Shown here: positions 11,205 to 29,316 of the stretch, one piece after another
Position numbering within the stretch: the first letter of the stretch is position 1
Layout of the letters: each line of letters begins with the position of its first letter
Assembly (NCBI GenBank): GCA_003151535.1
Contig: PLXT01000115.1
Coordinates: 33,941 to 97,940, forward strand
Direction: 5' to 3'
DNA length: 64,000 nucleotides
From: Methanobacterium sp.
Lineage (GTDB): Archaea; Methanobacteriota; Methanobacteria; Methanobacteriales; Methanobacteriaceae
Made by a program: the position numbers and the translations under genes
The notes under the pieces: generated by a model
The model's input: the letters and a program-made list of their open reading frames with translations, nothing else
What the model was told of the DNA's origin: nothing
The model's database searches: none

Positions 11205-11209
11205 AATCT

Positions 11210-11458: not shown

Positions 11459-11597
11459 TTAAAGAGGTGTCATAAATAATGCTTGTGAGTGCATCAATTC
11501 TACAATACCATTCACTGAATGCACCGTATACAATATCATAATAAATTGGTCCTTTAATTTCAGTATATATCCTTATTTTATTAGCGATGTTAACCAT
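11385..11597 (-). CDS. member of small paralogous ORF array (70 aa)
   Basis: similar composition; a TATATTTG -7 box lies just upstream (about 11625-11640). Confidence 0.3.
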   Translation of the reverse strand: MVNIANKIRIYTEIKGPIYYDIVYGAFSEWYCRIDALTSIIYDTSLIENPSSIRRTINANISHKMVYEKS

Positions 11598-11646
11598 TAT
11601 AGTTATATTAAAAATTATTTGAATACAAATATACGGTGTTTTTAGC

Positions 11647-13251: not shown

Positions 13252-13290
13252 GTATATAAATATTAAGAATTCTATTCAAAATAACCTATT

Positions 13291-13542
13291 TCAATCATTT
13301 TTAAACTTTTTGAATTTATAATCAACCCATAGCTCAACTTCGGCAAACAAATCAGGATGATTTATTTTAAACTCTGTATAGATTTTTTCGTTCTCAATAT
13401 CTTCAGGGCTATCGGCTTTGGTGTGAACATAAATGTAGTAGTTATAGGTGATATAATCACCGATATCGGTGATTATATCTTTATCTCCATCTACAGCCAT
13501 TTGAATGGCTTCTTTTAATTGTGCTGGTGATTTTATATTCAT
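13291..13542 (-). CDS. hypothetical protein (83 aa)
   Basis: ORF only. Confidence 0.4.
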   Translation of the reverse strand: MNIKSPAQLKEAIQMAVDGDKDIITDIGDYITYNYYIYVHTKADSPEDIENEKIYTEFKINHPDLFAEVELWVDYKFKKFKND

Positions 13543-13544
13543 AA

Positions 13545-14054
13545 TTACTCGTACAATCCGTAACCAAATGAACTATTTAAATTTGGGTTCCACCATCCAT
13601 TGATGGCTGGAATGTCTTTTACTTCTGATTTCTTGAAGGATGCTTCTTCCAATTCTAAATCTGGTAAAGACAGCTTAACGAATTTAAGCCACAAGTCTAT
13701 GAAATGGGTTACTCCATCTACTGGTGCGTTTTCACCTTCTTCGAATGCGGTTAAATCAAATCCTTCCCACACATCAATACCATGCGCTTTTAGTATTTCT
13801 TCCGCCAATTTGGAAATTTCACTATCTTGATATTTAACTGCGATTTTCCTAGCTTCGAACTCTGGATGATTCCAATGTAACTCAAGCCCAGTGTAATCTT
13901 CACCACCGTTAAACGAAAGACCTGTTAACTTACAAGAATCTTTATAAGCTTGTTGAATCTCTTCAACAGTCTTATTACTTTCATATACGAATACCTCGTA
14001 GTGATTATGACCATCTTCAGACCAATCCCCAATGGTTAACTTTAACTTATTCAT
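13545..14054 (-). CDS. hypothetical protein (169 aa)
   Basis: ORF only. Confidence 0.45.
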   Translation of the reverse strand: MNKLKLTIGDWSEDGHNHYEVFVYESNKTVEEIQQAYKDSCKLTGLSFNGGEDYTGLELHWNHPEFEARKIAVKYQDSEISKLAEEILKAHGIDVWEGFDLTAFEEGENAPVDGVTHFIDLWLKFVKLSLPDLELEEASFKKSEVKDIPAINGWWNPNLNSSFGYGLYE

Positions 14055-14469
14055 GCGTAGATTTTTGTTTATACTCTCTTTGTAAAATATTTTCTCTTGT
14101 GAACTTGCAATACATATAGGACATATAACGGATAATTCGATTAAGAATGTCTTGATCTTCTTGCAAGCTACGTTTTGCTCTTTCTAGCATATCACGGTAT
14201 ATCAATCCGCTCAAATATCTTTTATTTTTTTCATCCAAACATTTAATTACTAATAATTTATTATGTAGTGTTTTAATTAAATTGTCAGATTTACCAAAAT
14301 ATTTATATCTATCTACTTTGAGCAAATATTCAACAATAGCATTGGCCCCTTTGTATTTTCGGTCAAGAAAAGAGTCTCTCCATTTCCTGAATGAATTACT
14401 TGTTGGATCACTTGCATTTATTAAATGTTCTTCAAAGAATTCATGCAGTGTTCTGATGTTCCAATTCAT
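14047..14469 (-). CDS. hypothetical protein (start trimmed to the MNWNIR... Met to avoid a 140-nt overlap)
   Basis: the ORF-track start (14625) lies inside the upstream gene; the internal Met gives a 4-nt-type junction. Confidence 0.4.
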   Translation of the reverse strand: MNWNIRTLHEFFEEHLINASDPTSNSFRKWRDSFLDRKYKGANAIVEYLLKVDRYKYFGKSDNLIKTLHNKLLVIKCLDEKNKRYLSGLIYRDMLERAKRSLQEDQDILNRIIRYMSYMYCKFTRENILQREYKQKSTHE

Positions 14470-14485
14470 AGTTATACTTTTAAAC

Positions 14486-15229
14486 CTACCAAATAAACAA
14501 TGGGAACAACCAAAAATCTGGCACATAATATGGATCATAATATGATTCATACGTGATATATTCCTCAACCTCAACTTCGTCGGTGTCATTGCCGATTGTT
14601 GTTTGCAACAGTTTCTCTCTCTCAACTTCTTTTTTAAGAAGTTCTACCATTAGCTTGCTACCTTGCTCTATGATATCCAAAAGTGTGGATTCGCCCAATT
14701 GTTCTGGGGTAATAGCTGTATTGACAATATTATCAATTTCACTCCAAATATTGTCTGACAATAACTCGACCTGCCAACCAGTTGAGGCAGTGTCAAACCT
14801 ATTTTCGTTGACAAAGGACATGAAAACAATTTCATGGGGATTTAATTTCTTGAATAGACCAACCGCTATTCTAACATCATCAAATCTTGGGTTAACCTTG
14901 AATTGATCCCAGTCAGAATCCGTGTTGAAATCATAATACTTGGCAAATGCAAATTCACCAGCTTCCAGATCAACAAAGGAGAAAACATCAAATACTTTCA
15001 GATACTCAGTATATCTGTCCATAAAGTTATTGAAAGTGTTCACACCTTTTGTGGTTTCAACATAACGGCCAGCAGTTATCTGAATATAGCCTTTAGAAAG
15101 AAGGTCAATAAATAGGGGCTCTAACATCGCATCCGCACCATTAAAAATTGTTGCAAAGACACGATGATTGATAATTAATTCGTTTAGAATTATGATAGAC
15201 TTAAACGATTTGATATCATTTGGGCTCAT
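14486..15229 (-). CDS. hypothetical protein (247 aa)
   Basis: ORF only. Confidence 0.45.
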   Translation of the reverse strand: MSPNDIKSFKSIIILNELIINHRVFATIFNGADAMLEPLFIDLLSKGYIQITAGRYVETTKGVNTFNNFMDRYTEYLKVFDVFSFVDLEAGEFAFAKYYDFNTDSDWDQFKVNPRFDDVRIAVGLFKKLNPHEIVFMSFVNENRFDTASTGWQVELLSDNIWSEIDNIVNTAITPEQLGESTLLDIIEQGSKLMVELLKKEVEREKLLQTTIGNDTDEVEVEEYITYESYYDPYYVPDFWLFPLFIW

Positions 15230-15291
15230 GAGTGTAGTTTATAAAAACAATTACGAAGCATTTCTACTTCGTAATTGCTAAGGTTAAAAAA

Positions 15292-15990
15292 TTACTTTGT
15301 GCGTTGTCTTTTCAATTCTTCCAAGGCAGACGTGGGAGAATCAGTGGTCAGGACTTTATCGATTTGCTCTTGGGTAGATAACGTTGAATTATCCACTTCA
15401 GCATAAGCTTGCGCTCTAAACTCAGTTGCTGATACTTTTTCTTTCATACGTGCCATTGTTTGGACAAGGCCATCGGTATCCACGGAAGACATGGCTTTAT
15501 TGATCTTTTCAGATGCGTCAGCCGTTTTTTGCTGTGATCTAATGAGTTCAACATCATTTTTGGTCTTGTTAATGTTGTCTCGCAGTGATGTCAATTTTTG
15601 ATCCATCACTTTCAGGGCGGCATCTTCACGATCAGCGTTACCACCAGCTTGATCAGCTTGGGCTTGAAAGTCTTTGTTGTACTGTGCTGATTGTGCAGCC
15701 AGATTGTTCAAATTCGCTTTGGTGATTGGATCGGTTTCGGCTTCAGCCTTATCCAAAAGTGTGTAGGTTTTACCCTTCCATTTTTCCGCTTGGTCCAAGT
15801 TGCTTTTTTGATCAGCCCTGTGACCCAAGGCAATTGCCTTAATTTCTGCTTCTGATTCAATACCCTTCTGAAGTTGTTCATTCAACTCCCTTAAAATCTG
15901 TTGGGACATTTCAACTGGATCTTCCAGCTTATCAACTACTGTGTTTGCTTTAGCAGCGCCCACTCTGAATAATCTATCTAATATACTCAT
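15292..15990 (-). CDS. pspA: PspA/IM30 (phage-shock protein A / Vipp1) family protein
   Basis: N-terminal MSILDRLFRVGAAKANTVVDKLEDP and long coiled-coil typical of PspA/IM30. Confidence 0.65.
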   Translation of the reverse strand: MSILDRLFRVGAAKANTVVDKLEDPVEMSQQILRELNEQLQKGIESEAEIKAIALGHRADQKSNLDQAEKWKGKTYTLLDKAEAETDPITKANLNNLAAQSAQYNKDFQAQADQAGGNADREDAALKVMDQKLTSLRDNINKTKNDVELIRSQQKTADASEKINKAMSSVDTDGLVQTMARMKEKVSATEFRAQAYAEVDNSTLSTQEQIDKVLTTDSPTSALEELKRQRTK

Positions 15991-16013
15991 AATACTTTTT
16001 TAATGTTATTTAA

Positions 16014-16784
16014 TTAACGTCTACGTCCACCGCCGCCACCGAAACTGCTTCTACTACCTCCGAAACTACTCCTGCTGCTGCCTCCGAAACTGCTTCCACT
16101 AGAGCTAGACGTATGGCTTGAACCAAATCCGCCACTTCTAACTGGCGCAGATGAATTTCTTGATTCAAAGGATCTTTGACTTGTAGTTGGGCTTGATAAT
16201 GAGCTTCTGGATGGCGCTGAATTTACACTACGAGATTGGCTAGATCTTCCTGATGGGCTGTAGCTTCGTCTTACGATTGTAGTCTGGTGGTAAGATGATG
16301 GGTAATAACCGTAGTGATATAAAGGGGTATAGTAATGATGTGGGGCTAAGAGGTAAGACATCATTAAATAGTCTCCCACACTAAAATGAGATTGGTAACT
16401 ATAATCATTACCACAATAGGTCTGATTACCGTTAATGCTTAGAGTATTGCTTTGTTGATTAATATTCATAGTAGCTACAACTGCTGACTGTGTGCTGGAA
16501 TAATCATCGACCACTTGTAGTGTACCATTTTGCTGTTCAACGACTTTTACGTAATCTACCTTACCATCGTTATTTAGGTCCAAGTTGTTAATGCTGTTGT
16601 TTGGTGCATTAAGAGCTTGCTCAAGACTTTGTGGGTCTTTGGTAGTCTTTAATAGTTGCGCAAAATTGCTAACATTAAACCCTTGTACATTGCTGGGGGT
16701 TACGTCAATATTGACATCGTTTTGCTGTGGTTGAGAACAGCCTACTGTCAATAAAAATAGTAATGGAATAATAAATTTTTTCAT
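16014..16784 (-). CDS. lipoprotein with disordered Ser/Gly/Arg-rich C-terminus
   Basis: MKKFIIPLLFLLTVGCSQ lipobox; C-terminus SSGSSFGGSSRSSFGGSRSSFGGGGGRRR. Confidence 0.6.
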   Translation of the reverse strand: MKKFIIPLLFLLTVGCSQPQQNDVNIDVTPSNVQGFNVSNFAQLLKTTKDPQSLEQALNAPNNSINNLDLNNDGKVDYVKVVEQQNGTLQVVDDYSSTQSAVVATMNINQQSNTLSINGNQTYCGNDYSYQSHFSVGDYLMMSYLLAPHHYYTPLYHYGYYPSSYHQTTIVRRSYSPSGRSSQSRSVNSAPSRSSLSSPTTSQRSFESRNSSAPVRSGGFGSSHTSSSSGSSFGGSSRSSFGGSRSSFGGGGGRRR

Positions 16785-16844
16785 GTTGTATGTGTTTGTT
16801 TTGTTAGACTACAAATCTACAATAAGTTTTAACATTTCCAAACT

Positions 16845-17144
16845 TTATTTTTTTAAAGTGAACAAAATATAACCTTCTTGAATATCTATTGATTCAATTA
16901 ATCTATTAGTAGAATCATTAAAAAACTCCACTAAATTATCGCCTAATAAGATATAAGGACCACCGCTAGGGTCTATCATGGTGATTTTTCGCCCACCTTC
17001 TAGCTCTTCAAAGCCATACCTCATACCTAATTCAAAATAACCACTCATTCTAACTGTGTTATCTAAATCCTCAAAAGTAATTTTGTCTCTGTCTCTATTG
17101 CTGTAAACTATCTTCATATTAATGTCTCTCTTTTTTAACTTCAA
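16845..17144 (-). CDS. hypothetical protein (99 aa)
   Basis: ORF only. Confidence 0.4.
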   Translation of the reverse strand: MKLKKRDINMKIVYSNRDRDKITFEDLDNTVRMSGYFELGMRYGFEELEGGRKITMIDPSGGPYILLGDNLVEFFNDSTNRLIESIDIQEGYILFTLKK

Positions 17145-17344
17145 TTCTCATAGCTGGGCTGAGGTATTTTTTTCTAAAATTAGTTAAATTTTTTGCCCAG
17201 CCCCATAGTTTAAAACGTATACAAGTATTCAGTACTTTGCTAGTTAATTTTAATACTCCATCGTAATAATATCTCTTCATTTATTTATTTAAAAAATAAA
17301 TATCAAAAAATAATTTTACAATTATACACAATGCTATGGCTAAA

Positions 17345-17375
17345 AACAATAAAGCCCAAAAATTTTTGGGCTTTA
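17345..17375 (-). terminator. rho-independent terminator
   Basis: perfect hairpin AAAGCCCAAAAATTTTTGGGCTTT followed by T-rich tract on the minus strand. Confidence 0.55.
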
Positions 17376-17392
17376 AATTTTAATCTGGATAA

Positions 17393-17614
17393 TTAAACTG
17401 TTGTTCCTGAAAGTGGCGTAGGAGGTGTAGGAGGTGTAGGGGATGGCTTACTAACGATTGACCATATTGCACCAACTACTGTTATAATACCACCAATGAT
17501 TTGAGTTTCAAGGGCGCTGCTAATAGTACCTTCTGCAACCAAAATACCACCACCAAAGGTTAAGACGTGTCTAAGAATACCCAGAACTTGAATTTCTGTT
17601 AACTTAAGTTTCAT
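17393..17614 (-). CDS. small membrane protein, holin-like (2 TM, Gly-rich), Pro/Thr-rich tail
   Basis: start trimmed to MKLKLTEIQV...; hydrophobic helices LGILRHVLTFGGGILVAEG and IIGGIITVVGAIWSIV. Confidence 0.35.
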   Translation of the reverse strand: MKLKLTEIQVLGILRHVLTFGGGILVAEGTISSALETQIIGGIITVVGAIWSIVSKPSPTPPTPPTPLSGTTV

Positions 17615-17633
17615 AATGATTTTCTTATAAATA

Positions 17634-18116
17634 TCATCTGAAAACCTTAAAATCACTCCTCATATCAAAAAAACTCTTAAAAATTTGCATACTATCATAC
17701 AACGGAATGTTATACCTATTACAGAAAATATCCACATTAGCTTTTCTAGCATATCCTTCAGGACACACAACCGATATTTTGTTATAATGTGAAAATCTAC
17801 CCAATTCTAACATTGTTATAATACTATCCGTTTCTGGTAAGAAATTAAACAAAATAAAATCAGCTTTCTCCAAGGCATCCAATTCCCAATTAACCTGTTG
17901 AAACATTGCTGGGTTTTCAAACTTTTGTTCCAGTTTAGCATTCCAATCTTTTCGACGTGGGTTAAAAACACCCCAACCTTTACATAAGAAGAAATCTTTT
18001 GCTTGAAGCTGCCAATCAATAGAATTTCCCTGTTCTATCGTACCTGCTAAGAAAACGAATTGTTTATCAATACTTCTATTAGAAATATTCATGGGCGGCT
18101 CAAAGTAATTATTCAT
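17634..18116 (-). CDS. nucleoside 2-deoxyribosyltransferase-like (Rcl/DNPH1-fold) protein
   Basis: N-terminal FVFLAGTIEQGNSIDWQ motif typical of the family; paralogue at 60701..61123. Confidence 0.4.
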   Translation of the reverse strand: MNNYFEPPMNISNRSIDKQFVFLAGTIEQGNSIDWQLQAKDFFLCKGWGVFNPRRKDWNAKLEQKFENPAMFQQVNWELDALEKADFILFNFLPETDSIITMLELGRFSHYNKISVVCPEGYARKANVDIFCNRYNIPLYDSMQIFKSFFDMRSDFKVFR

Positions 18117-18128
18117 TAATCTATTAGT

Positions 18129-18644
18129 TTATTTATTGTATATGACGATTGTTACATCGCAATCTTTTAATTCAGCTTCGATTATTTTTTTTATAGTAGC
18201 CCAAGAACCACCCGCAAGCCCTGCGCCTATTTTGGGTAACCCAATGCGCTTACCTTTAAAAATATTATTTATCTTTCTCATACACAATGTCAGGGCTTCA
18301 TAATCCAGTGGTTTCTTAATACCATCAGAATGATTCTGACCATATTTGTATTGAGTGTAGCAATTAACCACCGTCAATTCAGGTTCATCCTCTGTATTAT
18401 CTGCATCATACAGATCCCACATGGCGTTTGATCCAAGAACAAATGTGTGATAATCTATACAACCCAATTTTTCAATAGTTTCGCCCCAAGTTTCCATCTC
18501 AAATACATCGCAACCAAAAGCCTTGGCCATTTGTGGTGCTATACCCGCACCCATCTTGGAGAAGCAGTTGCAGCCGTGGCCTATTACATCGAAAGCCCCG
18601 TTTCGCCCCAAGACAATTAGATCCCCATCTATTTCTTTATACAT
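18129..18644 (-). CDS. macro-domain protein of the TARG1/OARD1 type (ADP-ribose processing)
   Basis: GHGCNCFSKMGAGIA and LPKIGAGLAGGSW and VTIVIYNK align with the TARG1 pattern AHCISEDCRMGAGIA / MPRIGCGLDRLQW / ITVYTL. Confidence 0.55.
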   Translation of the reverse strand: MYKEIDGDLIVLGRNGAFDVIGHGCNCFSKMGAGIAPQMAKAFGCDVFEMETWGETIEKLGCIDYHTFVLGSNAMWDLYDADNTEDEPELTVVNCYTQYKYGQNHSDGIKKPLDYEALTLCMRKINNIFKGKRIGLPKIGAGLAGGSWATIKKIIEAELKDCDVTIVIYNK

Positions 18645-18734
18645 AAAGTTATTTTTGTTTCCTTAAACATTCCTGTACCCATTCAAGATTTCGTTGCTCC
18701 TATTTTTCTATGGCATCGCCTTTAGCCATAGTTC

Positions 18735-19067
18735 TTATTTAATTTCGTCAAACCAAACGACGCCATTTAATAATGTTCTTTCCATCCTAATATGACCACC
18801 AATACCATATTCCCAATATGAAAAACGATACCCACCATCTGATCCATATGTCGAAACATCTGTGTAGATGGGAAGCTTATATGTAACAGTCTTAACACTT
18901 CCGTTCACCAATTCAACCCTAAAGGTTCTTTTAACCATTGTATGGTCATAATTATTCCATTGTTCGGCTATTACGGTAATTAGTGCTGCTAGGGTAAGTA
19001 ACATTATAATTGATAATGTCGAAGATATCGAAAATATAAATTTCATAACGCTTACGATTTTAAACAT
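18735..19067 (-). CDS. membrane-anchored protein (110 aa)
   Basis: N-terminal TM segment. Confidence 0.4.
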   Translation of the reverse strand: MFKIVSVMKFIFSISSTLSIIMLLTLAALITVIAEQWNNYDHTMVKRTFRVELVNGSVKTVTYKLPIYTDVSTYGSDGGYRFSYWEYGIGGHIRMERTLLNGVVWFDEIK

Positions 19068-19260
19068 TTATCTTTTAAATCCATACCTATTTGCATCCAG
19101 GTGCTTCTTCTACCAATAGTATATCCATTTTCACTATTTATAAGTAAGAACATCCCTATAACACTAGCAACTAAAAATAAAGTGGCGAACATCCAAATAA
19201 TAAAAACTACGTATTTCATAAAGTATTTTTTTTATGCCATTCAATATTGTTTTTCGTCCA

Positions 19261-19608
19261 TCAGACAGGTATTATTAATTCACGTTTATTCTCCAAGTCA
19301 AACTCCAAATTCCAATCGCAACTATTTGGAGTATTATCTTGCCAACTTCTTAGTACTATATCACACACGTACACCTTCTCTTGTTCTTCCATATTACTAC
19401 TCACTACACCTAAATTATTGTTATTATCAAGATCCAATATTTCATTTAATGTGATAGTCTTTTCAATTATCTCATTACTCGTCTCATCACGTAGAAGCTT
19501 ATCAATTCCAGTTAAACGTAATACTACATTACTACTTTCTTTGATTAGGATGCCCTCGCCATTACCCAGTATTGCAACAATACAATCCTTATAAGTAGCA
19601 GTTGTCAT
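19261..19608 (-). CDS. hypothetical protein (115 aa)
   Basis: ORF only. Confidence 0.4.
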   Translation of the reverse strand: MTTATYKDCIVAILGNGEGILIKESSNVVLRLTGIDKLLRDETSNEIIEKTITLNEILDLDNNNNLGVVSSNMEEQEKVYVCDIVLRSWQDNTPNSCDWNLEFDLENKRELIIPV

Positions 19609-19613
19609 GATAA

Positions 19614-21164
19614 TTAGATTATGAGTTTCTTGCGAATTTCTTCAAAAGTAGTGATATTCTCAAACTCACCGTCCCTATACAATACTTTTAATGCACCCTC
19701 TTTTTCTTCGGCCATACTAACTTTTTCAATCAGTTCGTAAGTACCGCTTTCCCCAATCACTTTTCCCAATCCTGTTGCTGATTTTTTAGTACCGTCATCA
19801 GTTATGGGATCTTTGAATATTTCACGCTCTTCACCGTTTACGATGACGAAAGTAGCCTTCATCGCAAACCCAAAGGTGTCACGTGTATTAAACTGATATG
19901 TAAAGCTACCCACACCCAATACAATATTGGTGCTAGCGAAGCCTTTATCTGCTAAGCGCTGACAAATTTCTTCGGCACGTGCAATCGTGATAGAATCTCC
20001 GTACAAAGCCCCAATGTGCGTATCTAAGACTTTATAACCTTGGTCATTAATAGTGCCGCCGAAGACTTCCCATAGCAATTCAATAACTCCTTTGCATGCT
20101 GGGATATCTTTTTCTTCGATAAGCCTATCTGGCATGAATCTATTATCTAGGGTATAATATTTACCGTCAACTATAGTAAACTCTTTGTGACCACAAATTA
20201 TATCAACAGGATTACCACTGTCAGGACGTAAAACCAATTTACCATCACGAGCTAAAATTTCATTCTTCAGTGTACGAACATGCTGGGTACAGACTTTCCA
20301 TAAATCCCATGTGTCAGCTACAACACCCAATATACCTGTAGGATATATAGTGAACAGTCTGCGGATTGTTTCTACTTCATCATCTTTTTTACCTGCGCAC
20401 ATTACGCTGTGTTCAGTTGCAGGTACGGTACCAATAACTTGACCTTGTGCATTATAGTATTTTCTAGCACCATTAATAACTGGCAGTGTATCAGATCCCA
20501 TGAATGATGTGGCATGACCCAATCCAGAAGTTATTGATGGTCCAATGCCATCCATTCCACGCATGCTGAAATCATGCGCCTGCCAATCCACAAACCACGC
20601 TCTTCCTATGTCAGTTTTTTGCTGCCAATAAGACAAAAGTTTACGATAAGAATGTGCAATAGTTGCAGAAGTCATTGGCTTCCACAGCAAGTTAGAGATG
20701 ATTGTTTCAAGGAAGTTTGTAACCCAAAAAAAATCTGGGTGTGTATTTTTTATCGTTAATACTGGAACGCGAATTGGAACCAATGTACCTTCTTCCAATA
20801 TTTTCACTTCAATGGGTAGATACCCTAAGTCATGTAACCGTTCAATACGACTTACATCATAATTAACACCCAAAAGCAAAGAATATTCTCTTTTGATCTC
20901 TTGGCAAACTACATTCTTTGGTTTACTAAAAAACCCATACTGGAAGAGAGAATGTATTTCAATCATTGTCATTTGTTGACCAAATGACACTACTTGTTCA
21001 CAACCTTGTGGAGCATACTTATTACTTCTGGGCGTAAAGTTTGAACACACAAATGTTGTACCATCAGGATATTGAGGGGGGTGAGAAGTTTTGTACCCAT
21101 CACATAATAAAAATGGGTTAATAATGTCTGACACTAATTGCCAATTAATAGATTGATTGCTCAT
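19614..21164 (-). CDS. nicotinamide phosphoribosyltransferase (NAMPT/NadV) family enzyme; alternatively a NARP1-type nicotinamide ADP-ribose transferase
   Basis: LLCDGYKTSH, HDFSMRGMDG, GSDT, ATEHSV, RPDSGNP, GDSI and FKDPI motifs align along the whole NAMPT sequence. Confidence 0.85.
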   Translation of the reverse strand: MSNQSINWQLVSDIINPFLLCDGYKTSHPPQYPDGTTFVCSNFTPRSNKYAPQGCEQVVSFGQQMTMIEIHSLFQYGFFSKPKNVVCQEIKREYSLLLGVNYDVSRIERLHDLGYLPIEVKILEEGTLVPIRVPVLTIKNTHPDFFWVTNFLETIISNLLWKPMTSATIAHSYRKLLSYWQQKTDIGRAWFVDWQAHDFSMRGMDGIGPSITSGLGHATSFMGSDTLPVINGARKYYNAQGQVIGTVPATEHSVMCAGKKDDEVETIRRLFTIYPTGILGVVADTWDLWKVCTQHVRTLKNEILARDGKLVLRPDSGNPVDIICGHKEFTIVDGKYYTLDNRFMPDRLIEEKDIPACKGVIELLWEVFGGTINDQGYKVLDTHIGALYGDSITIARAEEICQRLADKGFASTNIVLGVGSFTYQFNTRDTFGFAMKATFVIVNGEEREIFKDPITDDGTKKSATGLGKVIGESGTYELIEKVSMAEEKEGALKVLYRDGEFENITTFEEIRKKLII

Positions 21165-21173
21165 GTTTTGGGG

Positions 21174-21941
21174 TTAAAAAAGTTTTATTATTGTAAGATT
21201 GTTTAAATCGTATTCGTCATATTTGCTATTGGTACAAAATACCGTTTCGTATAATGTCTCCAACTCTTTATTGGGATTCTTAACTGTCATATGACTTACA
21301 GCTAGATATAATTTACCCACGTTGCGATCCTTAAGCATCTTTGCAAGGCCCAAAAACGTCCCTCCAACCACGCATATGTCATCCGCAATTAAAATGTCTT
21401 TACCTTGGAAATCTTGCCGATCAATAACTTGTGTGAGCTTATGCGTGTGAGGATCACGGGCTTTATTGGCTCCATATACCTCACCATCGAATGATATAAT
21501 ATCGGCTAGCTTATTGATCCATTTGTAAGATCCTGCGTCCGTGGAAAGCAAAATAGGTTTTGGTGGTATTTCTGAAAGAACAGTTTTGATAAATTTGCTA
21601 TTATCAATAATTCGCACATTGTTTAGAAGTGCTGGTGTGATATCGCTATGAGGATGGAAAACATGTACCTTACCAAAGTTACAAGAGTTTATGAAATCAC
21701 ATACCAATTTCAATTCAAAGGATTGGTTGTCTGAAAACCTACGATCATGCTGTTGCTGAAACATACACGGAATTCTCAATTCAACATCTTTAATTCCGTT
21801 ATAATCACAACTGTCTTTCAGTGATTTTACAAAAAATAGATCTTCGTAGGAATTTATTTTTTCTGTAATTATGGGGTTGGTAAAATCATCAATACTGGCA
21901 TACACGCCGTTATCAGGGTATCGGTTTCTTTTATACTGCAT
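21174..21941 (-). CDS. truncated ribose-phosphate pyrophosphokinase (Prs)-like enzyme, 255 aa (candidate ADP-ribose pyrophosphokinase of NARP1)
   Basis: PRPP/phosphoribosyl-binding loop ILIADDICVVGGT and Prs C-terminal half similarity; the N-terminal Prs half is missing. Confidence 0.6.
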   Translation of the reverse strand: MQYKRNRYPDNGVYASIDDFTNPIITEKINSYEDLFFVKSLKDSCDYNGIKDVELRIPCMFQQQHDRRFSDNQSFELKLVCDFINSCNFGKVHVFHPHSDITPALLNNVRIIDNSKFIKTVLSEIPPKPILLSTDAGSYKWINKLADIISFDGEVYGANKARDPHTHKLTQVIDRQDFQGKDILIADDICVVGGTFLGLAKMLKDRNVGKLYLAVSHMTVKNPNKELETLYETVFCTNSKYDEYDLNNLTIIKLF

Positions 21942-22009
21942 TTTAATAAATTTAATTTAACTTTTTAGTATAGCCTCAAAAACCTCCTCTATGTTTCATA
22001 ATTTAATTA

Positions 22010-22942
22010 TTATGCTGGGCAATGAATAATTTCTTTTCCGCGACCAATACTTGGCTTAGCTTTATCTGGGTTATTTCTCATCCATTCTTGGACAAACCAT
22101 AATTGCCCACAGCCTCCGCCTATATCGTCCTGACCTGCTGGATTAAAGACACGAGTAGAAAAACCTCTATTAGCCAATTCAGTTGTAAAATCAAGCGCCA
22201 ATTCTTCTTGCCTTTTATTGGCTGCAGCAATATGTTCATCACGTTCACATATTACAGATATAGTGGCTTCCCAGTGAGTTGGGTTAAATAATTCCAATAA
22301 TCTATCGGCATCCTCTTGGGTGTTATTTTTCTCATGCACACAATAGTTAAAAAATGCTTTTCGGCCTGTAGTAGAATGAAACTTTGTACCCACTTCAGCT
22401 ATCTTACTTAAAGTTAATTTTTTAGCAAAAGGAATGAGTTTATTCCGAGCTTCATCGGAAGATTCATGTACGGAAAATTGTAGACCAATTTTAGGTATTT
22501 CTACCGATAACGAAATTAGCTCATCGTATGAATCTACATCAGGCCCAGATGTGCTTATTAATAGTGCTGCGTTGGGATACAGTTCATGAAGTTTGTTAAG
22601 AGCAATTTTAAGATTCTTGAAGTTAAGGAAAGGTTCCCCCATACTCATAAACATAATTTGAAGTCTACCTATATCCTTAACGTCAACGTTAGTAGTTTCC
22701 AGAAGGTGAACTGGTTGTGAAATTATTTCTTCACTTGTTAAAGACCTTACAAAGTTATCTCCAGCGCCACAGAATCTGCATCCCACTGGACAACCACTTT
22801 GAGTACTACAACAAATAACTGTTCTGTCCTCATATGTTGGATATTTGTATAACACTGACTCGGCAACTGCTGAATCTTTAGTGAAGACAAATTTCTTAAC
22901 ATTAGTATCAGTACTTTGAATTTCTTTAATATCGCTCCACAT
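22010..22942 (-). CDS. radical SAM methyltransferase of the RlmN/Cfr family (310 aa)
   Basis: CPVGCRFCGAG cluster (CxxxCxxC), MGEPFLN, ISTSG and C-terminal GQDDIGGGCGQL motifs parallel RlmN (MGMGEPLLN, LSTSG, GDDIDAACGQL). Confidence 0.65.
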   Translation of the reverse strand: MWSDIKEIQSTDTNVKKFVFTKDSAVAESVLYKYPTYEDRTVICCSTQSGCPVGCRFCGAGDNFVRSLTSEEIISQPVHLLETTNVDVKDIGRLQIMFMSMGEPFLNFKNLKIALNKLHELYPNAALLISTSGPDVDSYDELISLSVEIPKIGLQFSVHESSDEARNKLIPFAKKLTLSKIAEVGTKFHSTTGRKAFFNYCVHEKNNTQEDADRLLELFNPTHWEATISVICERDEHIAAANKRQEELALDFTTELANRGFSTRVFNPAGQDDIGGGCGQLWFVQEWMRNNPDKAKPSIGRGKEIIHCPA

Positions 22943-22973: not shown

Positions 22974-23516
22974 TTAAATATTCAAACATTGGTTGGAATG
23001 GTGTTTTGCCTCGCCGAATCCCAACTTTGAGATAAAGTGTGCGTTTTCTTTTTGATACGTAGTAAACATTTTACTTTTTGTCATCTTGGAATATTGCACA
23101 TTTGCAATTCTATCACATAACTTAACGAACACAGCGGCATTGATCTTAACTATCCCAGCATAATATTTATCATTGGCTCTTTCTTCACGAGTTTTACCTT
23201 TCTCATTAGAGACTGCGTATATTATATCAGCGGCTTCTTCACCCAAATGGCCAAACACATCATTGTAAGACACCCTGCAATCCTCAATTAAATCATGGCC
23301 CCAGCATGCACGTATAATTATTTCCCTGTTATATTCTCGTTTCTCCCGATTATAATTTATACCAGACAGAGTACTATCCAAATACAAATCGATAAAATCT
23401 TTTGCGACATTTACAACCATACGCAAATGAAATTCGTATGGCAAGTATTCAGAATACATGTAACATGTTCTTACATGTTGTTGGATACACCAGTTAGAAA
23501 TTAGCTCTTGTGTCAT
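22974..23516 (-). CDS. HD-domain phosphohydrolase
   Basis: H...HD motif (WGHDLIEDC) with downstream His/Asp residues. Confidence 0.55.
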   Translation of the reverse strand: MTQELISNWCIQQHVRTCYMYSEYLPYEFHLRMVVNVAKDFIDLYLDSTLSGINYNREKREYNREIIIRACWGHDLIEDCRVSYNDVFGHLGEEAADIIYAVSNEKGKTREERANDKYYAGIVKINAAVFVKLCDRIANVQYSKMTKSKMFTTYQKENAHFISKLGFGEAKHHSNQCLNI

Positions 23517-24638: not shown

Positions 24639-25580
24639 TTAGAAGCGAATCCCCTTGATATATTCTATATGTTCCTCGGACATTGGTGCCCCAGTGAAAT
24701 TGAGGGTTAAAAAAGTGGTCAACACATCCTCCTCGCTTGCAGACTCAGATAATTCACCCACGGTCAAAGCATCGTAGTTTAAAAACCTTCTTTGAGCATT
24801 TGCTGATAAATCCTCAAAAAAGTTTCCATATTCGTCAGGGAATTTATTCTGTACAAATTCTAATATAGCGTGAAACCGTTGTTTGCCATCTACACAATCG
24901 AAATTAAAGCCATGCCCTGTCTCGATGACTTCTTTTTCGATGTGCGCCCAAGCATGATATTTAAATAAGAATTTACCTATTTCAATACCATTGTATATAC
25001 TGGAGATTAGAAGCTGTTTTTCATGTTTCGTCCATACCAATGGTCTTTGATAATACTTTACACCTTCTGATGTCGTAACATATGGGTTGAAATTAATTCC
25101 TCCATACGTCTTACCAAAATGATCTCCGTCCTCTTTCTTGTCGAAATGATTATAATCTGGGGTGTTAAATAAATCACTTTTTCTACCATATCCACCACGG
25201 CTCAATATACTTTCAATTGAGTTGTTATAAAATCTAACATCAACGGTTCGTTTAAATGGATTTGCACCGCATGCGAATGTGTTTTGTTTAACAAACTCAG
25301 CCTTAACAACTTTATCATCATATTCATAACCTTTTAAAGCAATTTCAGAAGGTATACTGTGACTGTAACTCTCAATGTCATAACATAATCCATGAACTGG
25401 GCTATCGATAATTTTTAGTATATCGCCACTAAGATAAAACACAGTATCCGTAGATGTCTGAACAAATTTACCCTTAACCTTAACCGAACCAATTTTCTTA
25501 TATGGCACCCTAACATCTACATAATCACCAACTTTAATGGGTTTCTGTAATTGGGCTTGTATTTCTTGACTCTTGCTCAT
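24639..25580 (-). CDS. protein with C-terminal ParB/DUF262-like (DGQQR-type) domain
   Basis: FDCVDGKQRFHAILEF resembles the DGQQR motif of DUF262/ParB-like nucleases. Confidence 0.35.
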   Translation of the reverse strand: MSKSQEIQAQLQKPIKVGDYVDVRVPYKKIGSVKVKGKFVQTSTDTVFYLSGDILKIIDSPVHGLCYDIESYSHSIPSEIALKGYEYDDKVVKAEFVKQNTFACGANPFKRTVDVRFYNNSIESILSRGGYGRKSDLFNTPDYNHFDKKEDGDHFGKTYGGINFNPYVTTSEGVKYYQRPLVWTKHEKQLLISSIYNGIEIGKFLFKYHAWAHIEKEVIETGHGFNFDCVDGKQRFHAILEFVQNKFPDEYGNFFEDLSANAQRRFLNYDALTVGELSESASEEDVLTTFLTLNFTGAPMSEEHIEYIKGIRF

Positions 25581-25781: not shown

Positions 25782-26300
25782 CTATAACTCGTTAGAGTTA
25801 AGTATTTTACCGTTATTTAAAATTTTTTTTGCTTGAAAAACATTTCCCATTGTTAGTCCTACAAATCTATCAATCAAAAGGAAATTATTCCTTTGCCAAT
25901 ATAACATATCAGAATCATCATCCAATATGACATATTCAGTGAATTGATAATAGGGACCGACCAACGCTTCATTATCTTTAACCCAAGTTAATATCTCATT
26001 GCCTCTAAGACAATTATCACTACGTAAATTTGGTGTGATATCCAATATTTCTCCTTTGAATTTGTGAAATTCAAGTGCGTTTCTGCACTGCTCAATACCA
26101 TCACTTCTCCATGTTGAAGAAATTACAATCTTTGCTTGGGTGTCCTTGCACAAGGAGTTTAGATTTTGAACGCATTCTGGATCAATTTGCGAAAATCTAT
26201 GTGGTAAATTATCGAATGTTTTGTTCTTTTTTATATGGCGTTCTTTATAAAATCTTTCATGATTTAAGACACCATCGATATCCAGAAATATTATCTTCAT
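25782..26300 (-). CDS. HAD-superfamily phosphatase (172 aa)
   Basis: motif I IIFLDIDGVLN, motif II ISSTWR, motif IV ILDDDSD. Confidence 0.55.
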   Translation of the reverse strand: MKIIFLDIDGVLNHERFYKERHIKKNKTFDNLPHRFSQIDPECVQNLNSLCKDTQAKIVISSTWRSDGIEQCRNALEFHKFKGEILDITPNLRSDNCLRGNEILTWVKDNEALVGPYYQFTEYVILDDDSDMLYWQRNNFLLIDRFVGLTMGNVFQAKKILNNGKILNSNEL

Positions 26301-28515: not shown

Positions 28516-29316
28516 TTATTTATTTTCTGGTATTCTATTATCTAAAAATGTTTTTTCTTGTGTGAAAATAGGGCACTCAACACTGACCCACTTATTTCTA
28601 ACTGTATCAGTTAATGCTATTTCTTGATTTGGTATATCTCTTACATCCTGTCCATTCACAAAGGTGATCCTTTCGATAAACCCACCTCTTTTCTTCCTAG
28701 CTGGATAATCATTCCAATTAATGCCTTTCTGAAAAATTAATTCTTGTTTTGCCTCAGAATTAACTCCATGTAATTCTTTGTGAGGATATAAGGATTGGGC
28801 AACGCTGGAAATACTATTCCTAGTACAATCTTGCTGCCGCCAAATAAAATAGTTACTAACCTCAACCCTTTGAGGGATAATAAAAATACGAGCATCGAAC
28901 ATGGCTAGTTTTGGCTTTTGGACATATCTATTATCGAAAGCGTCTCGTGTTAAAAACCTTTGGCTTCTTAGTTCATTAAAAATGGCTGTTGCCGTGGATG
29001 CAGCTACGCTAACCATTTTTTGTACGTTGTTATCAAACCATGCTTGGGTTCCAATAGCATCGAAATCAGTTAACAATATACTGATTTCATCTGATTGAAC
29101 ATATGCAAATTTAGCACCGCTTAAATTCTTACATAAATACTTAGCAGTTTCATCCATGTCTTGAATAAGATCATTATCAAAAGGTCTATCCAAGCCTTTA
29201 GTCCACGTATGAAAGGATTTTCCGTCAATTCTCAGGATTGCATATGTCCTTCTAGGTAATTTAATCCTATAAGCTGTTTCATATTCCTTAATTCTATCAC
29301 CTAATGAATCTTTCAT
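28516..29316 (-). CDS. tRNA-His guanylyltransferase (Thg1)-like protein
   Basis: YAILRIDGKSFHTWTKGLDRPFD and AKFAYVQSDEISILLT match the Thg1 catalytic core. Confidence 0.75.
   Translation of the reverse strand: MKDSLGDRIKEYETAYRIKLPRRTYAILRIDGKSFHTWTKGLDRPFDNDLIQDMDETAKYLCKNLSGAKFAYVQSDEISILLTDFDAIGTQAWFDNNVQKMVSVAASTATAIFNELRSQRFLTRDAFDNRYVQKPKLAMFDARIFIIPQRVEVSNYFIWRQQDCTRNSISSVAQSLYPHKELHGVNSEAKQELIFQKGINWNDYPARKKRGGFIERITFVNGQDVRDIPNQEIALTDTVRNKWVSVECPIFTQEKTFLDNRIPENK

What the first reader, a model, noticed from the sequence alone, without database searches (positions are those of the whole stretch)
19614..21941. Adjacent NAMPT-family and truncated Prs-like genes: candidate NARP1-type NAD+ reconstitution (anti NAD-depletion) module
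A full-length NAMPT homologue (516 aa, motifs conserved end to end) sits 10 nt from a 255-aa protein that has only the C-terminal PRPP-binding half of ribose-phosphate pyrophosphokinase. Classical phage NAD salvage pairs NadV with an NMN adenylyltransferase, and no NMNAT is visible in this window. A NAMPT-like transferase next to a Prs-like kinase is the architecture reported for phage NAD+ reconstitution pathway 1, in which ADP-ribose is pyrophosphorylated and condensed with nicotinamide. That pathway counters Thoeris-, DSR-, SIR2- and SEFIR-type defences that deplete NAD+.
Basis: partly seen in the sequence, partly recalled or inferred. Interest (0 to 1): 0.8.

Follow-up and report, generated by a model that had tools for sequence, protein, structure and literature searches.

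The report
Phage NAD+ rebuilding gene pair (NARP1)
Two neighbouring genes in a giant-phage genome fragment are a sound but ordinary new example of NARP1, the known two-enzyme pathway by which phages rebuild NAD+ after bacterial defences destroy it.

Summary
Both ORFs are real, on the minus strand: 21941..21174 (255 aa, Prs-like) and 21164..19614 (516 aa, NAMPT-like). They are 9 nt apart, in the adps-then-namat order of NARP1 operons.

The 516-aa protein is a Namat, not a NadV/Nampt. It scores 508 bits against the SPbetaL1 Namat crystal structures and 187-199 bits against true Nampts. It carries the Namat-specific motif GSFTYQFNTRD and a complete catalytic core.

The 255-aa protein is not a C-terminal half of Prs. 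It is a full two-domain PRPS fold (pLDDT 93.8, TM 0.83 to E. coli Prs) trimmed at both ends, like validated Adps enzymes. It keeps K160, H98, D135 and D187/D188. It matches validated Adps (61-88 bits) better than E. coli Prs (28 bits) or archaeal Prs (44 bits). Of 46 related metagenomic loci, 42 have a Namat homologue within 6 kb.

No NMNAT is present in the 64-kb window.

This is a new, divergent member from an uncultured jumbo-phage lineage.

One extra point: a macro-domain gene 970 nt downstream belongs to the Adpp (NARP1-AP phosphatase) family. A PF15891 N-glycosidase-like gene sits next to it.

The parts
21174..21941 (-). adps: ADP-ribose pyrophosphokinase (Adps), 255 aa, PRPS-like two-domain enzyme and first gene of the pair
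   Evidence: ORF. phrog_619 at 4e-45. TIGR01251 at 64 bits, below the Prs cut-off of 113, as are SPbetaL1 Adps (106) and ICP1 Adps (98), versus 423 for E. coli Prs. phmmer bits: 88 to ICP1 Adps, 66 to AG74, 62 to FADO, 61 to SPbetaL1, 28 to E. coli Prs. Catalytic and binding residues kept (ICP1 numbering to window): F18=Y8, F92=F69, H121=H98, D161=D135, K185=K160, R187=R162, D212/D213=D187/D188; R87 is Q64. AF2 pLDDT 93.8 with full PRPS fold. The 255-270-aa form is conserved in more than 120 sequence clusters.
19614..21164 (-). namat: nicotinamide ADP-ribose transferase (Namat), 516 aa, second gene, 9 nt downstream of adps
   Evidence: 508 bits to 9W5X/9W5W (SPbetaL1 Namat, identified in PMC12774641) versus 187-199 bits to true Nampts. 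49% identity to FADO Namat and 48% to SPbetaL1 Namat. The tblastn score distribution is bimodal and this protein is in the Namat mode. The SCH motif G419-SFTYQFNTRD-D429 fits GSX-phi-X-phi-X-phi-TRD; K49-Y50 sit at the SCL position; catalytic D22, Y24, F199, R202, D225, H252, R313 and D315 are kept.
18129..18644 (-). Macro-domain protein, 171 aa: candidate Adpp (ADPR-1''-phosphate phosphatase) that would extend the module to NARP1-AP; 970 nt and three small ORFs downstream of namat
   Evidence: phrog_335 'phosphatase' at 2.2e-41. This is the same PHROG as the macro gene lying between adps and namat in Vibrio phage AG74 (gp177) and in L027. Full-length BLASTP match to AG74 gp177: 28% identity, E 4e-15. 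Homologues 48-57% identical lie between or beside Adps and Namat in L022, L027, L030 and L053. The role is inferred, not shown.
17634..18116 (-). PF15891 nucleoside 2-deoxyribosyltransferase-like protein, 160 aa, 12 nt downstream of the macro gene; possible accessory, function unknown
   Evidence: PF15891 at 2.1e-25. Best solved match is 4mcj (uncharacterised, Parabacteroides), then YtoQ, DNPH1, MilB and NDTs by fold. Homologues lie beside Adps/Namat in L029, L045, L047, L039, L017 and L055.
19261..19608 (-). 115-aa ORF starting 5 nt after the namat stop; no known family; probably co-transcribed
   Evidence: ORF. No Pfam or PHROG match above threshold. No homologue in the 46 related loci.
18735..19219 (-). 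Two small overlapping ORFs with hydrophobic, membrane-like sequences (55 and 110 aa) between the 115-aa ORF and the macro gene
   Evidence: ORFs. No significant family.
17350..17375 (-). Strong intrinsic-terminator-like hairpin (11-bp stem plus T run), the first strong one on the - strand downstream of the pair
   Evidence: No comparably strong hairpin lies on the - strand between 24187 and 17375 (one weak 5-bp stem at 18225..18213). The genes from the radical-SAM gene to the NDT-like gene could therefore be one transcript (inference).

Best explanation
The two genes are a NARP1 operon (adps then namat) of an uncultured jumbo phage. When a host defence NADase (SIR2, TIR or SEFIR type) splits NAD+ into ADP-ribose and nicotinamide, the 255-aa Adps uses ATP to pyrophosphorylate the terminal ribose of ADP-ribose, giving ADPR-PP and AMP. 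The 516-aa Namat then replaces that pyrophosphate with nicotinamide and regenerates NAD+ directly, without NMN or an NMN adenylyltransferase. Shown here: the family assignment of both proteins, conservation of their catalytic and specificity residues, their fold, their operon-like arrangement, and the conserved pairing in relatives. Inferred: the two reactions themselves and the anti-defence effect.
For: Namat. It scores 508 bits to the Namat crystal structures 9W5X/9W5W versus 187-199 bits to human, rodent and bacterial Nampts. The motif GSFTYQFNTRD matches the published Namat signature, whereas NARP2-type phage Nampts have GGGLLQ.. at that position. The catalytic residues equivalent to D13, Y15, F189, R192, D215, R306 and D308, and the catalytic His, are all present. 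It is 48-49% identical to the experimentally validated SPbetaL1 and FADO Namats, and lies in the high-scoring mode of a bimodal distribution.

Adps. It has a full PRPS fold. K160 matches SPbetaL1 K162 and ICP1 K185, both essential. H98, D135, D187 and D188 match residues mutated in ICP1 Adps. It scores 61-88 bits to four Adps from validated or near-validated operons versus 28 bits to E. coli Prs and 44 bits to archaeal Prs. It falls below every curated Prs cut-off, as validated Adps do. In a neighbour-joining tree rooted on gammaproteobacterial Prs, it is nested among Adps-like proteins with ICP1 and SPbetaL1 Adps branching outside it.

Context. The order adps-namat with a 9-nt gap is the same as in SPbetaL1, FADO, ICP1 and Bas63. 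42 of 46 loci with a relative of this Adps carry a Namat homologue within 6 kb, including a 623-kb contig with otherwise different neighbours. No NMNAT is in the window.
Against: Nothing was tested biochemically. One ADPR-adenine contact of ICP1 Adps, R87, is Gln (Q64) here and in about 38% of the sampled relatives, so substrate binding may differ in detail. The Adps is only 27-34% identical to any Adps in cultured phages. Namat enzymes also make NMN from PRPP in vitro, so some NMN synthesis cannot be excluded. Only 64 kb of a roughly 348-kb genome is visible, so an NMNAT elsewhere cannot be ruled out. The tree used neighbour-joining with a narrow outgroup.
Confidence: 0.85

Rival explanations
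1. Extended reading, not exclusive of the best explanation. The pair works with the macro-domain gene 970 nt downstream as a NARP1-AP pathway. The macro protein (Adpp type) dephosphorylates ADPR-1''-phosphate, made by aRES (RES-domain) defences, to ADP-ribose, which then enters Adps/Namat.
For: The macro protein is in phrog_335 together with the macro genes embedded in NARP1 operons of Vibrio phage AG74 and L027. AG74 has the same Adps-macro-Namat layout as Vibrio phage Gary, whose Adpp was characterised. The window protein aligns end to end with AG74 gp177. Macros 48-57% identical sit between or beside Adps and Namat in L022, L027, L030 and L053. The published system has 15% of NARP1 operons carrying such a macro gene. 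No strong terminator separates namat from the macro gene.
Against: The gene is four genes away, outside the published 'within two genes' criterion. This macro family is found in 2537 phage records, more than carry Adps (1230), so it also occurs without NARP1. The window is rich in RNA-repair genes, so an ADP-ribose-related or ADP-ribosylation-reversal role independent of NARP1 is equally natural. Pfam Macro reaches only 18.5 bits, below the cut-off of 22.
Confidence: 0.4
2. Classical salvage, as the automatic annotations say. A PRPP synthetase supplies PRPP and a NadV/Nampt makes NMN from nicotinamide. NAD+ is completed by a host enzyme or by a phage NMNAT encoded outside the window (NARP2-like).
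For: Both proteins hit the Prs and NAPRTase/Nampt families. Namat enzymes retain NMN-forming activity with PRPP in vitro. Only 64 kb of the genome can be seen.
Against: The Nampt-like protein has the adenine-clamp motif that true Nampts lack, and scores 2.5-fold higher against Namat than against Nampt. The Prs-like protein fails all curated Prs thresholds and lacks the Prs N- and C-terminal elements. Purified SPbetaL1 Adps gave no measurable product in the Prs-type assay (text; the legend names ribose-5-phosphate). No NMNAT is in the window. Osterman et al. found no phage with both NARP1 and NARP2.
Confidence: 0.08
3. The short Prs-like gene is a decayed, inactive remnant, and only the Nampt-like gene is functional.
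For: It is shorter than most Adps (255 versus 272-305 aa), and only one Pfam domain reaches significance.
Against: The same 255-270-aa form, with an invariant N-terminus (YPDGG.YA) and invariant catalytic residues, is kept in more than 120 clusters at 64-78% identity on contigs up to 623 kb. The model is confidently folded with no disordered segment. The ORF has no in-frame stop or frameshift.
Confidence: 0.03

Closest known systems
NARP1 of Bacillus phages SPbetaL1 and FADO (Adps + Namat; Osterman et al. 2024, bioRxiv 10.1101/2024.02.11.579819; Namat structures 9W5X/9W5W, PMC12774641)
   Same: Same two-gene order and close spacing. Namat is 48-49% identical, with the same selectivity-clamp helix motif (GSFTYQ(Y/F)NTRD) and catalytic core. 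Adps has the same trimmed PRPS architecture and the catalytic Lys (K162 = K160).
   Different: Adps is only about 29% identical. The window Namat has K-Y instead of R at the clamp-loop position (as in FADO and Bas63) and a 22-residue insertion after the RPDSG strand. The host is probably Bacteroidota rather than Bacillus, and the genome is a jumbo phage.
Vibrio phage ICP1 NrsA/NrsB = Adps/Namat (Adps structures, PMC13586617)
   Same: This is the closest experimentally characterised Adps (88 bits, about 31% identity). H121, D161, K185, R187, D212, D213, C215, F221, F92 and F18 (Tyr here) are conserved. The Prs C-terminal alpha11-alpha12 is lost.
   Different: R87 (an ADPR adenine contact) is Gln. 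The PP-loop reads CVVGGT instead of CDGAAS. The N-terminal domain is about 25 residues shorter.
NARP1-AP of Vibrio phage Gary (Adps-Adpp-Namat; bioRxiv 10.64898/2026.01.28.702374), represented here by Vibrio phage AG74, which has the same Adps-macro-Namat layout
   Same: A macro-domain protein of the same PHROG (335) lies near the pair. Closer relatives of that macro gene sit inside NARP1 operons in metagenomic phages.
   Different: Here the macro gene is not inside the operon. It lies 970 nt downstream, behind three small ORFs, and is paired with a PF15891 gene.
NARP2 of Vibrio phage KVP40 (Nampt + Nmnat)
   Same: It also rebuilds NAD+ and uses a homologous phosphoribosyltransferase fold.
   Different: KVP40-type Nampts are 27-29% identical to the window protein, have GGGLLQ instead of the Namat clamp, and are accompanied by an NMNAT. 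None is seen here.
Bacterial and archaeal ribose-phosphate diphosphokinase (Prs/PRPS)
   Same: Same two-domain fold and the same catalytic Lys/Arg loop, His and Asp-Asp motif.
   Different: 15-19% identity. It lacks the first beta-alpha unit and the C-terminal helices used for regulation and filament formation. It scores far below curated Prs thresholds.

Membership tests
NARP1 (Adps + Namat) | Prs-like gene and Nampt-like gene adjacent, co-oriented, Prs-like gene first | tested here: met
   21941..21174 then 21164..19614 on the - strand, with a 9-nt gap. Same order as SPbetaL1, FADO and ICP1.
NARP1 (Adps + Namat) | Nampt-like protein belongs to the Namat clade rather than the Nampt clade | tested here: met
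   508 bits to Namat structures versus 187-199 bits to Nampts. The tblastn distribution over phages is bimodal: 289-491 bits for Namat-type, 142-202 bits for T4-like and KVP40-like Nampt. The window protein sets the top of the upper mode.
NARP1 (Adps + Namat) | [quoted passage not shown] | tested here: met
   G419 S F421 T Y Q F425 N T R D429. Nampt controls have GGGLLQQSDRD and GGGLLQEVTRD.
NARP1 (Adps + Namat) | Namat selectivity-clamp loop with a stacking residue (Arg, or Lys/Tyr followed by the stacking residue) | tested here: inconclusive
   K49-Y50 fits the Lys-then-stacker rule, like FADO and ICP1. The two Nampt controls also have K-F here, so only the longer loop discriminates. No ligand-bound model was made.
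NARP1 (Adps + Namat) | Intact Nampt-type catalytic core in Namat (NAM pocket, catalytic His, R306, D308) | tested here: met
   D22, Y24, F199, R202, D225, H252, R313 and D315.
NARP1 (Adps + Namat) | Adps: PRPS-like two-domain fold without the Prs C-terminal alpha11-alpha12 module | tested here: met
   AF2 pLDDT 93.8 with TMq 0.76-0.83 to PRPS structures. The alignment ends before the Prs C-terminal helices.
NARP1 (Adps + Namat) | Adps catalytic and acceptor residues (ICP1 K185, H121, D161, D212, D213; SPbetaL1 K162) | tested here: met
   K160, H98, D135, D187 and D188. These columns are invariant or nearly so in 149 sequences (D161 column: 148 of 149).
NARP1 (Adps + Namat) | Adps contacts to the adenine part of ADPR (ICP1 F18, R87, F92) | tested here: inconclusive
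   Y8 and F69 are conserved, but R87 is Q64 here and in 57 of 149 aligned homologues.
NARP1 (Adps + Namat) | Adps falls in the phage Adps clade, separate from cellular Prs, and its clade is linked to Namat | tested here: met
   In the NJ tree it is nested among Adps-like proteins, with validated ICP1 and SPbetaL1 Adps branching outside it. The outgroup was Gammaproteobacteria only, with no bootstrap. 42 of 46 related loci have Namat within 6 kb. TIGR01251 gives 64 bits against a cut-off of 113.
NARP1 (Adps + Namat) | ADPR + ATP gives ADPR-PP; ADPR-PP + nicotinamide gives NAD+; rescue from NAD+-depleting defence | not testable with these tools
   Needs enzyme assays and infection assays.
NARP2 (Nampt + Nmnat) | KVP40-type Nampt | tested here: not met
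   27-29% identity to KVP40-like and T4-like phage Nampts, and no GGGLLQ-type motif.
NARP2 (Nampt + Nmnat) | NMN adenylyltransferase in the same genome | tested here: not met
   None in the 64-kb window. The remaining roughly 280 kb of the genome could not be read.
NARP1-AP (Adps + Adpp + Namat) | Macro-domain protein homologous to the NARP1-associated phosphatase Adpp | tested here: met
   Same PHROG (335) as operon-embedded macros. Full-length match to AG74 gp177. 48-57% identity to macros inside NARP1 loci L022, L027, L030 and L053.
NARP1-AP (Adps + Adpp + Namat) | Macro gene within two genes of Adps/Namat (criterion of the describing paper) | tested here: not met
   It is the fourth gene downstream of namat, 970 nt away.
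NARP1-AP (Adps + Adpp + Namat) | ADPR-1''-phosphate phosphatase activity | not testable with these tools
   Needs an enzyme assay.
Ribose-phosphate diphosphokinase (Prs) | Reaches curated Prs model thresholds and has the complete N-terminal domain and C-terminal helices | tested here: not met
   TIGR01251 gives 64 bits against a cut-off of 113. The equivalog models give 20-63 bits against cut-offs of 296-518. E. coli Prs scores 423-533. No PF13793 or PF14572 hit.

The most novel reading that the evidence does not exclude
The adps-namat pair may be the core of a larger, co-transcribed cassette that funnels ADP-ribose into NAD+ resynthesis. In this reading, the macro protein (Adpp-like) and the neighbouring PF15891 N-glycosidase-like protein each convert a different defence-made NAD+ derivative into plain ADP-ribose for Adps. 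Candidate substrates are ADPR-1''-phosphate for the macro protein and an N-linked ADPR adduct or signal such as His-ADPR for the PF15891 protein. In related phages, a small HAD-like phosphatase (phrog_1238) embedded in half of the operons would do the same for a further derivative, for example 2'-phospho-ADPR from NADP+. The PF15891 and HAD-like proteins would then be undescribed NARP1 'feeder' enzymes, alongside Adpp and RyDEP.
Probability: 0.12. Interest if true: 0.65.

Novelty: new member of a known kind. Interest (0 to 1): 0.3.

Why it matters
On its own this is a routine re-annotation. Genes labelled 'ribose-phosphate pyrophosphokinase' and 'nicotinamide phosphoribosyltransferase' in a metagenomic jumbo phage are really an anti-defence NAD+ reconstitution pathway.

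It extends NARP1 to a large, uncultured lineage: more than 120 sequence clusters on contigs of 200-620 kb, probably infecting Bacteroidota. That lineage has a minimal, divergent Adps in which Gln replaces an Arg that contacts ADPR in ICP1 Adps. This is useful for defining what the enzyme really needs.

The more interesting leads are by-products. An Adpp-type macro gene is detached from the operon. A PF15891 N-glycosidase-like gene recurs beside NARP1 genes. A HAD-like gene is embedded in many related operons, and none of the NARP1 papers I could read mentions it. If these are real accessory enzymes, they would widen the range of NAD+ breakdown products that phages can recycle.

Tried and rejected
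- Megablast of 19000-22500 against 50,697 phage records gave no match, so there is no close cultured relative.
- The first small MAFFT alignment (A1) placed a false 28-residue gap after the N-terminal motif and suggested an internal deletion. A 149-sequence L-INS-i alignment and the HMM coordinates showed instead a short N-terminal trim with Y8 equivalent to ICP1 F18.
- The sigma-70 promoter scan gave 33 sites against 33.9 expected, so it is uninformative. Only the terminator at 17375..17350 was used.
- NF006629 (NCBIfam) scores Namat and Nampt alike (512, 594 and 489 bits), so it cannot discriminate them.
- The Adps structures of PMC13586617 are not in the PDB copies searched, so no direct fold comparison with Adps was possible.
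- The genome-contig scan with E. coli Prs returned only Gammaproteobacteria at 80-99% identity. The tree outgroup is therefore narrow, and I did not bootstrap.
- The radical-SAM gene directly upstream, the HD gene, the GNAT gene and the 115-aa ORF downstream have no homologues in the 45 related loci from other genomes. I rejected them as parts of the system.
- Literature searches for NARP1 with deoxyribosyltransferase, for PF15891, for NARP1 with HAD terms, and for 9KE8/9KEO found nothing relevant. The identity of PDB 9ke8 (432 bits) stays unknown.
- Cluster look-up gave no source names or accessions for the three proteins.
- A first regex for the clamp motif was mis-specified and was redone.
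Full report
**Observation**

The ORF list shows two minus-strand ORFs at exactly the reported coordinates: 21941..21174 (255 aa) and 21164..19614 (516 aa). Nine bases separate them. Nearly all genes in the window are on the minus strand, and G+C is about 34%.

The 516-aa protein matches NAPRTase/Nampt families end to end: PF04095 at 1.5e-34, phrog_448 at 1.8e-182 over residues 9-514, and NF006629 at 512 bits. The 255-aa protein matches PF00156 (28.7 bits) and the phage 'ribose-phosphate pyrophosphokinase' family phrog_619 (4e-45, residues 21-252 on profile positions 41-274 of 282). These are real genes, not chance ORFs.

**The 'truncated Prs' claim is wrong**

The 255-aa protein is not the C-terminal half of Prs.
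- The Prs model TIGR01251 aligns residues 4-240 to profile positions 28-272 of 309.
- Methanocaldococcus Prs (1u9y) aligns 29-245 to residues 3-220.
- An AlphaFold2 model built on 45 homologues is very confident (pLDDT 93.8, pTM 0.89). It shows two alpha/beta domains.
- Foldseek superposes the model on full-length E. coli, human, Mycobacterium and Bacillus PRPS over about 270 columns, with TM-score 0.76-0.83 normalised to the query and 15-19% identity.

What is missing is the first beta-alpha unit of Prs and the C-terminal helices. The experimentally characterised Adps proteins lack the same parts. SPbetaL1 Adps aligns 9-264 to profile 27-287. The ICP1 Adps paper reports loss of the alpha11-alpha12 module.

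The short form is not decay. More than 120 clusters at 64-78% identity have 255-270 residues, an invariant N-terminal YPDGG.YA motif and invariant catalytic positions.

**What is known about the family**

Osterman et al. showed that a phage operon annotated prs + nampt actually encodes two different enzymes:
- Adps converts ADP-ribose + ATP to ADPR-PP.
- Namat converts ADPR-PP + nicotinamide to NAD+.

They named the pathway NARP1. It overcomes Thoeris I, DSR1, DSR2, SIR2-HerA and SEFIR. It occurs in 4.3% of phages, and 97% of Adps-clade genes have Namat beside them. About 20% of phage Namat homologues form a separate Nampt clade that is paired with an NMNAT (NARP2, as in KVP40). No phage had both pathways.

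Later structural work defined a Namat 'selectivity clamp'. It has a loop (SCL) and a helix (SCH). The SCH has the consensus GSX-phi-X-phi-X-phi-TRD, whose aromatic residues stack on the adenine. Structures of ICP1 Adps defined its substrate contacts and the essential Lys185.

**Is the 516-aa protein Namat or Nampt?**

It is a Namat.
- Against all PDB sequences, the best hits are 9W5X and 9W5W at 508 bits. That paper identifies them as SPbetaL1 Namat. Every true Nampt scores 187-199 bits.
- Against 50,697 phage records, the hits are bimodal. Namat-type proteins score 289-491 bits at 34-52% identity. T4-like, KVP40-like and Caulobacter-phage Nampts score 142-202 bits at 27-29% identity.
- The validated FADO and SPbetaL1 Namats are 49% and 48% identical.
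- In an alignment with four Namats and two NARP2-type Nampts, the window protein has G419-S-F-T-Y-Q-F-N-T-R-D429. The Namats have GS(F/Y)TYQY(N/V)TRD, and the Nampts have GGGLLQQSDRD and GGGLLQEVTRD.
- The position of SPbetaL1 R40 is K49 followed by Y50. This fits the published Lys-then-stacker variant, but the Nampt controls also have K-F there, so I treat this feature as weak.
- All catalytic-core residues are present: D22, Y24, F199, R202, D225, H252, R313 and D315.
- A 22-residue insertion follows the RPDSG strand. Other Namats (AG74, L047) have longer insertions at the same site.

**Is the 255-aa protein Adps or Prs?**

The evidence points to Adps.
- phmmer scores are 88 bits to ICP1 Adps (active in vitro), 66 to Vibrio phage AG74, 62 to FADO, 61 to SPbetaL1 and 118 to Citrobacter phage Tr1. 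They are 28 bits to E. coli Prs and 44 bits to the best archaeal Prs.
- Validated Adps are equally far from each other: ICP1 to SPbetaL1 scores 81 bits. They are closer to E. coli Prs (41-50 bits) than the window protein is.
- All Adps tested, and the window protein, fall below the TIGR01251 cut-off of 113: they score 106, 98 and 64 bits, against 423 for E. coli Prs.
- In a 149-sequence alignment, the ICP1 residues map as follows: F18 to Y8, F92 to F69, H121 to H98, D161 to D135, K185 to K160, R187 to R162, D212/D213 to D187/D188, C215 to C190, S220 to T195 and F221 to F196.
- The one notable difference is R87 to Q64. This is shared by 57 of 149 aligned homologues and invariant in the window's own clade (QQQHDRRF).
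- A neighbour-joining tree rooted on eight gammaproteobacterial Prs places the window clade deep inside the Adps-like proteins. ICP1/AG74/Tr1 and SPbetaL1/FADO branch outside it. The outgroup is narrow and there is no bootstrap, so this is supportive rather than conclusive.

**Conserved pairing**

A scan of IMG/VR with the clade alignment gave 45 loci, and one NCBI contig of 623 kb was added. Local tblastn found a Namat homologue within 6 kb in 42 of the 46. Of the four exceptions, two are cut by contig ends, one is a partial match, and one (L039) lacks it nearby. The 623-kb contig has entirely different neighbours (NusA, ClpP) but the same two-gene cassette.

The similarity of the two partners is not concordant across loci. 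Loci with 66-72% identical Adps have 43-49% identical Namat. L026 and L035 have 51% and 44% identical Adps with 65% and 60% identical Namat. This suggests the partners are exchanged between operons.

**No NMNAT in view**

Pfam scans of all ORFs of 150 aa or more, together with precomputed Pfam calls on an almost identical 31-kb contig, show no cytidylyltransferase/NMNAT domain. A six-frame motif scan found no usable match; its single hit contains stop codons. The exact proteins occur on a 348,046-bp contig, so about 280 kb could not be inspected.

**Mechanism**

I conclude, with about 0.85 confidence, that this is a NARP1 operon. Adps pyrophosphorylates ADP-ribose released by host NADases. [quoted passage not shown] The family assignment, residues, fold and synteny are shown here. 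The chemistry and the anti-defence effect are inferred from the characterised homologues.

**Surroundings**

Downstream of namat lie a 115-aa ORF (5-nt gap) with no family match, and two small ORFs with hydrophobic, membrane-like sequences. Next come a 171-aa macro-domain protein (18644..18129) and, 12 nt later, a 160-aa PF15891 'nucleoside 2-deoxyribosyltransferase-like' protein (18116..17634). An 87-aa ORF with a holin-family Pfam hit follows, and then the first strong minus-strand terminator at 17375..17350.

The macro protein is relevant. A 2026 preprint shows that 15% of NARP1 operons carry a Poa1p-like macro phosphatase, Adpp. It converts ADPR-1''-phosphate, the product of aRES defence, to ADP-ribose. 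The extended pathway is called NARP1-AP. Evidence that the window macro belongs to this family:
- It falls in phrog_335, as do the macro genes lying between adps and namat in Vibrio phage AG74 and in locus L027. AG74 has the same Adps-macro-Namat order as the characterised phage Gary.
- It aligns full-length with AG74 gp177 at 28% identity and E 4e-15.
- Macros 48-57% identical to it sit between or beside Adps and Namat in L022, L027, L030 and L053.

Against a NARP1-AP role:
- It is the fourth gene downstream, outside the paper's two-gene criterion.
- This macro family occurs in 2537 phage records, more than have Adps.
- The window is full of RNA-repair and ADP-ribose-related genes: Thg1, RNA ligase, HAD_SAK domains, PPK2, a 2H phosphoesterase and NADAR.

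I give a NARP1-AP role 0.4.

**Leads outside the finding**

The PF15891 protein has homologues beside Adps/Namat in L029, L045, L047, L039, L017 and L055. In L045 and L047 it lies between adps and namat. It is rare in cultured phages: 46 records, mostly Lak, Caulobacter and Brevundimonas jumbo phages. Its model (pLDDT 89.3) resembles an uncharacterised Parabacteroides protein (4mcj, 38-40% identity). More distantly it resembles YtoQ, DNPH1, the CMP N-glycosidase MilB and nucleoside deoxyribosyltransferases.

Separately, a 125-150-aa HAD-like protein (phrog_1238) lies between or next to Adps and Namat in 23 of the 46 related loci. It also lies directly after namat in Bacillus phages such as Megatron and BPS13. 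It has no homologue in the window.

I found no paper linking PF15891 or HAD-type phosphatases to NARP1. These are leads only. The loci are not phylogenetically independent, and no background rate was computed.

**Verdict**

NARP1 is an established and common phage system, so this is a new member of a known kind from an uncultured jumbo-phage lineage. The host is probably Bacteroidota, which is an inference from three observations: there is no Shine-Dalgarno sequence before either gene; the best Namat and macro hits are in crAss-like, Bacteroides and Cellulophaga phages; and the best structural matches of the macro and PF15891 proteins are Bacteroides and Parabacteroides proteins. Interest is low to moderate.

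Noticed in passing
L012, L013, L016, L017, L021, L022, L025, L026, L029, L031, L034, L038 (6762-7157), L040, L042-L049 (e.g. L047:3679-4131), L054, L055; also Bacillus phage Megatron KJ489401.1 23725-24129: A 125-150-aa HAD-like protein (phrog_1238, annotated 'phosphoheptose isomerase', 'phosphatase' or 'hydrolase') lies between or directly beside Adps and Namat in 23 of 46 related loci. It also lies directly after namat in Bastille-like Bacillus phages. It is absent from the window, and the NARP1 papers I read do not mention it. It could be another phosphatase that feeds NARP1.
   Followed up: partly
window 17634-18116 (-); L029:5538-6002, L045:7629-8105, L047:4082-4561, L039:9701-10177: A PF15891 nucleoside 2-deoxyribosyltransferase-like protein lies next to the macro gene. 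Homologues recur beside or inside Adps/Namat loci. Its fold resembles nucleotide N-glycosidases (DNPH1, MilB) and the uncharacterised Parabacteroides protein 4mcj. Its function is unknown.
   Followed up: partly
window 44452-44925 (-) and 47535-48086 (-): A NADAR-domain protein (174 bits; this family reverses ADP-ribosylation) and a 2H phosphoesterase with a hit to the anti-CBASS Acb1 family (29.4 bits). These are further candidate counter-defence genes in the same region.
   Followed up: no
window 11647-13251, 25782-26300, 28516-29316, 37789-39693, 39677-40198, 53817-54452 (all -): A concentration of RNA-repair or RNA-processing genes: a PPK2 fused to a HAD_SAK_2 domain, a stand-alone HAD_SAK_2, Thg1 (tRNA-His guanylyltransferase-like), RNase II/R, HAD_SAK_1 and an RNA ligase.
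   Followed up: no
window 3048-4358 (-): A TnpB/OrfB_IS605 protein (HTH, OrfB and Cas12f-like TNB domains) is encoded inside the phage region.
   Followed up: no
window 24639-25580 (-), 31519-32433 (+), 35659-36519 (-), 32472-34274 (-): Other accessory genes: a GmrSD_N/DUF262-domain protein, a GIY-YIG SegE-like homing endonuclease on the opposite strand, a sigma-70 family factor and a 600-aa SPFH/Band 7 protein.
   Followed up: no
L006 (Logan contig SRR35570658_239451) versus window 11174-31941: This contig is an almost identical copy of the region, with 0-2 differences per kb from L006 positions 4001 to 20768 apart from the HD gene. Within the HD gene (window 22974-23516), a stretch is out of register, so the contig carries a broken HD ORF. 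A second divergent stretch covers L006 positions 612 to about 3500-4000. Either assembly error or real strain variation could explain this.
   Followed up: partly
L010-L021 versus L026, L035: Adps and Namat similarities are discordant across relatives. The closest Adps (66-72% identity) sit with distant Namats (43-49%). More distant Adps (44-51%) sit with the closest Namats (60-65%). This suggests the two genes recombine between operons.
   Followed up: no
window 21165-21173, 21942-22009: There is no Shine-Dalgarno sequence directly upstream of the adps or namat start codons. The best hits of Namat, the macro protein and the PF15891 protein are in crAss-like, Bacteroides, Cellulophaga and Parabacteroides sequences. 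The host is probably a member of the Bacteroidota (inference).
   Followed up: partly
L039 (IMG/VR contig of 310,542 bp): A 61%-identical Adps has no Namat homologue within 6 kb. It does have the same macro plus PF15891 gene pair about 2.3 kb downstream, as in the window.
   Followed up: partly
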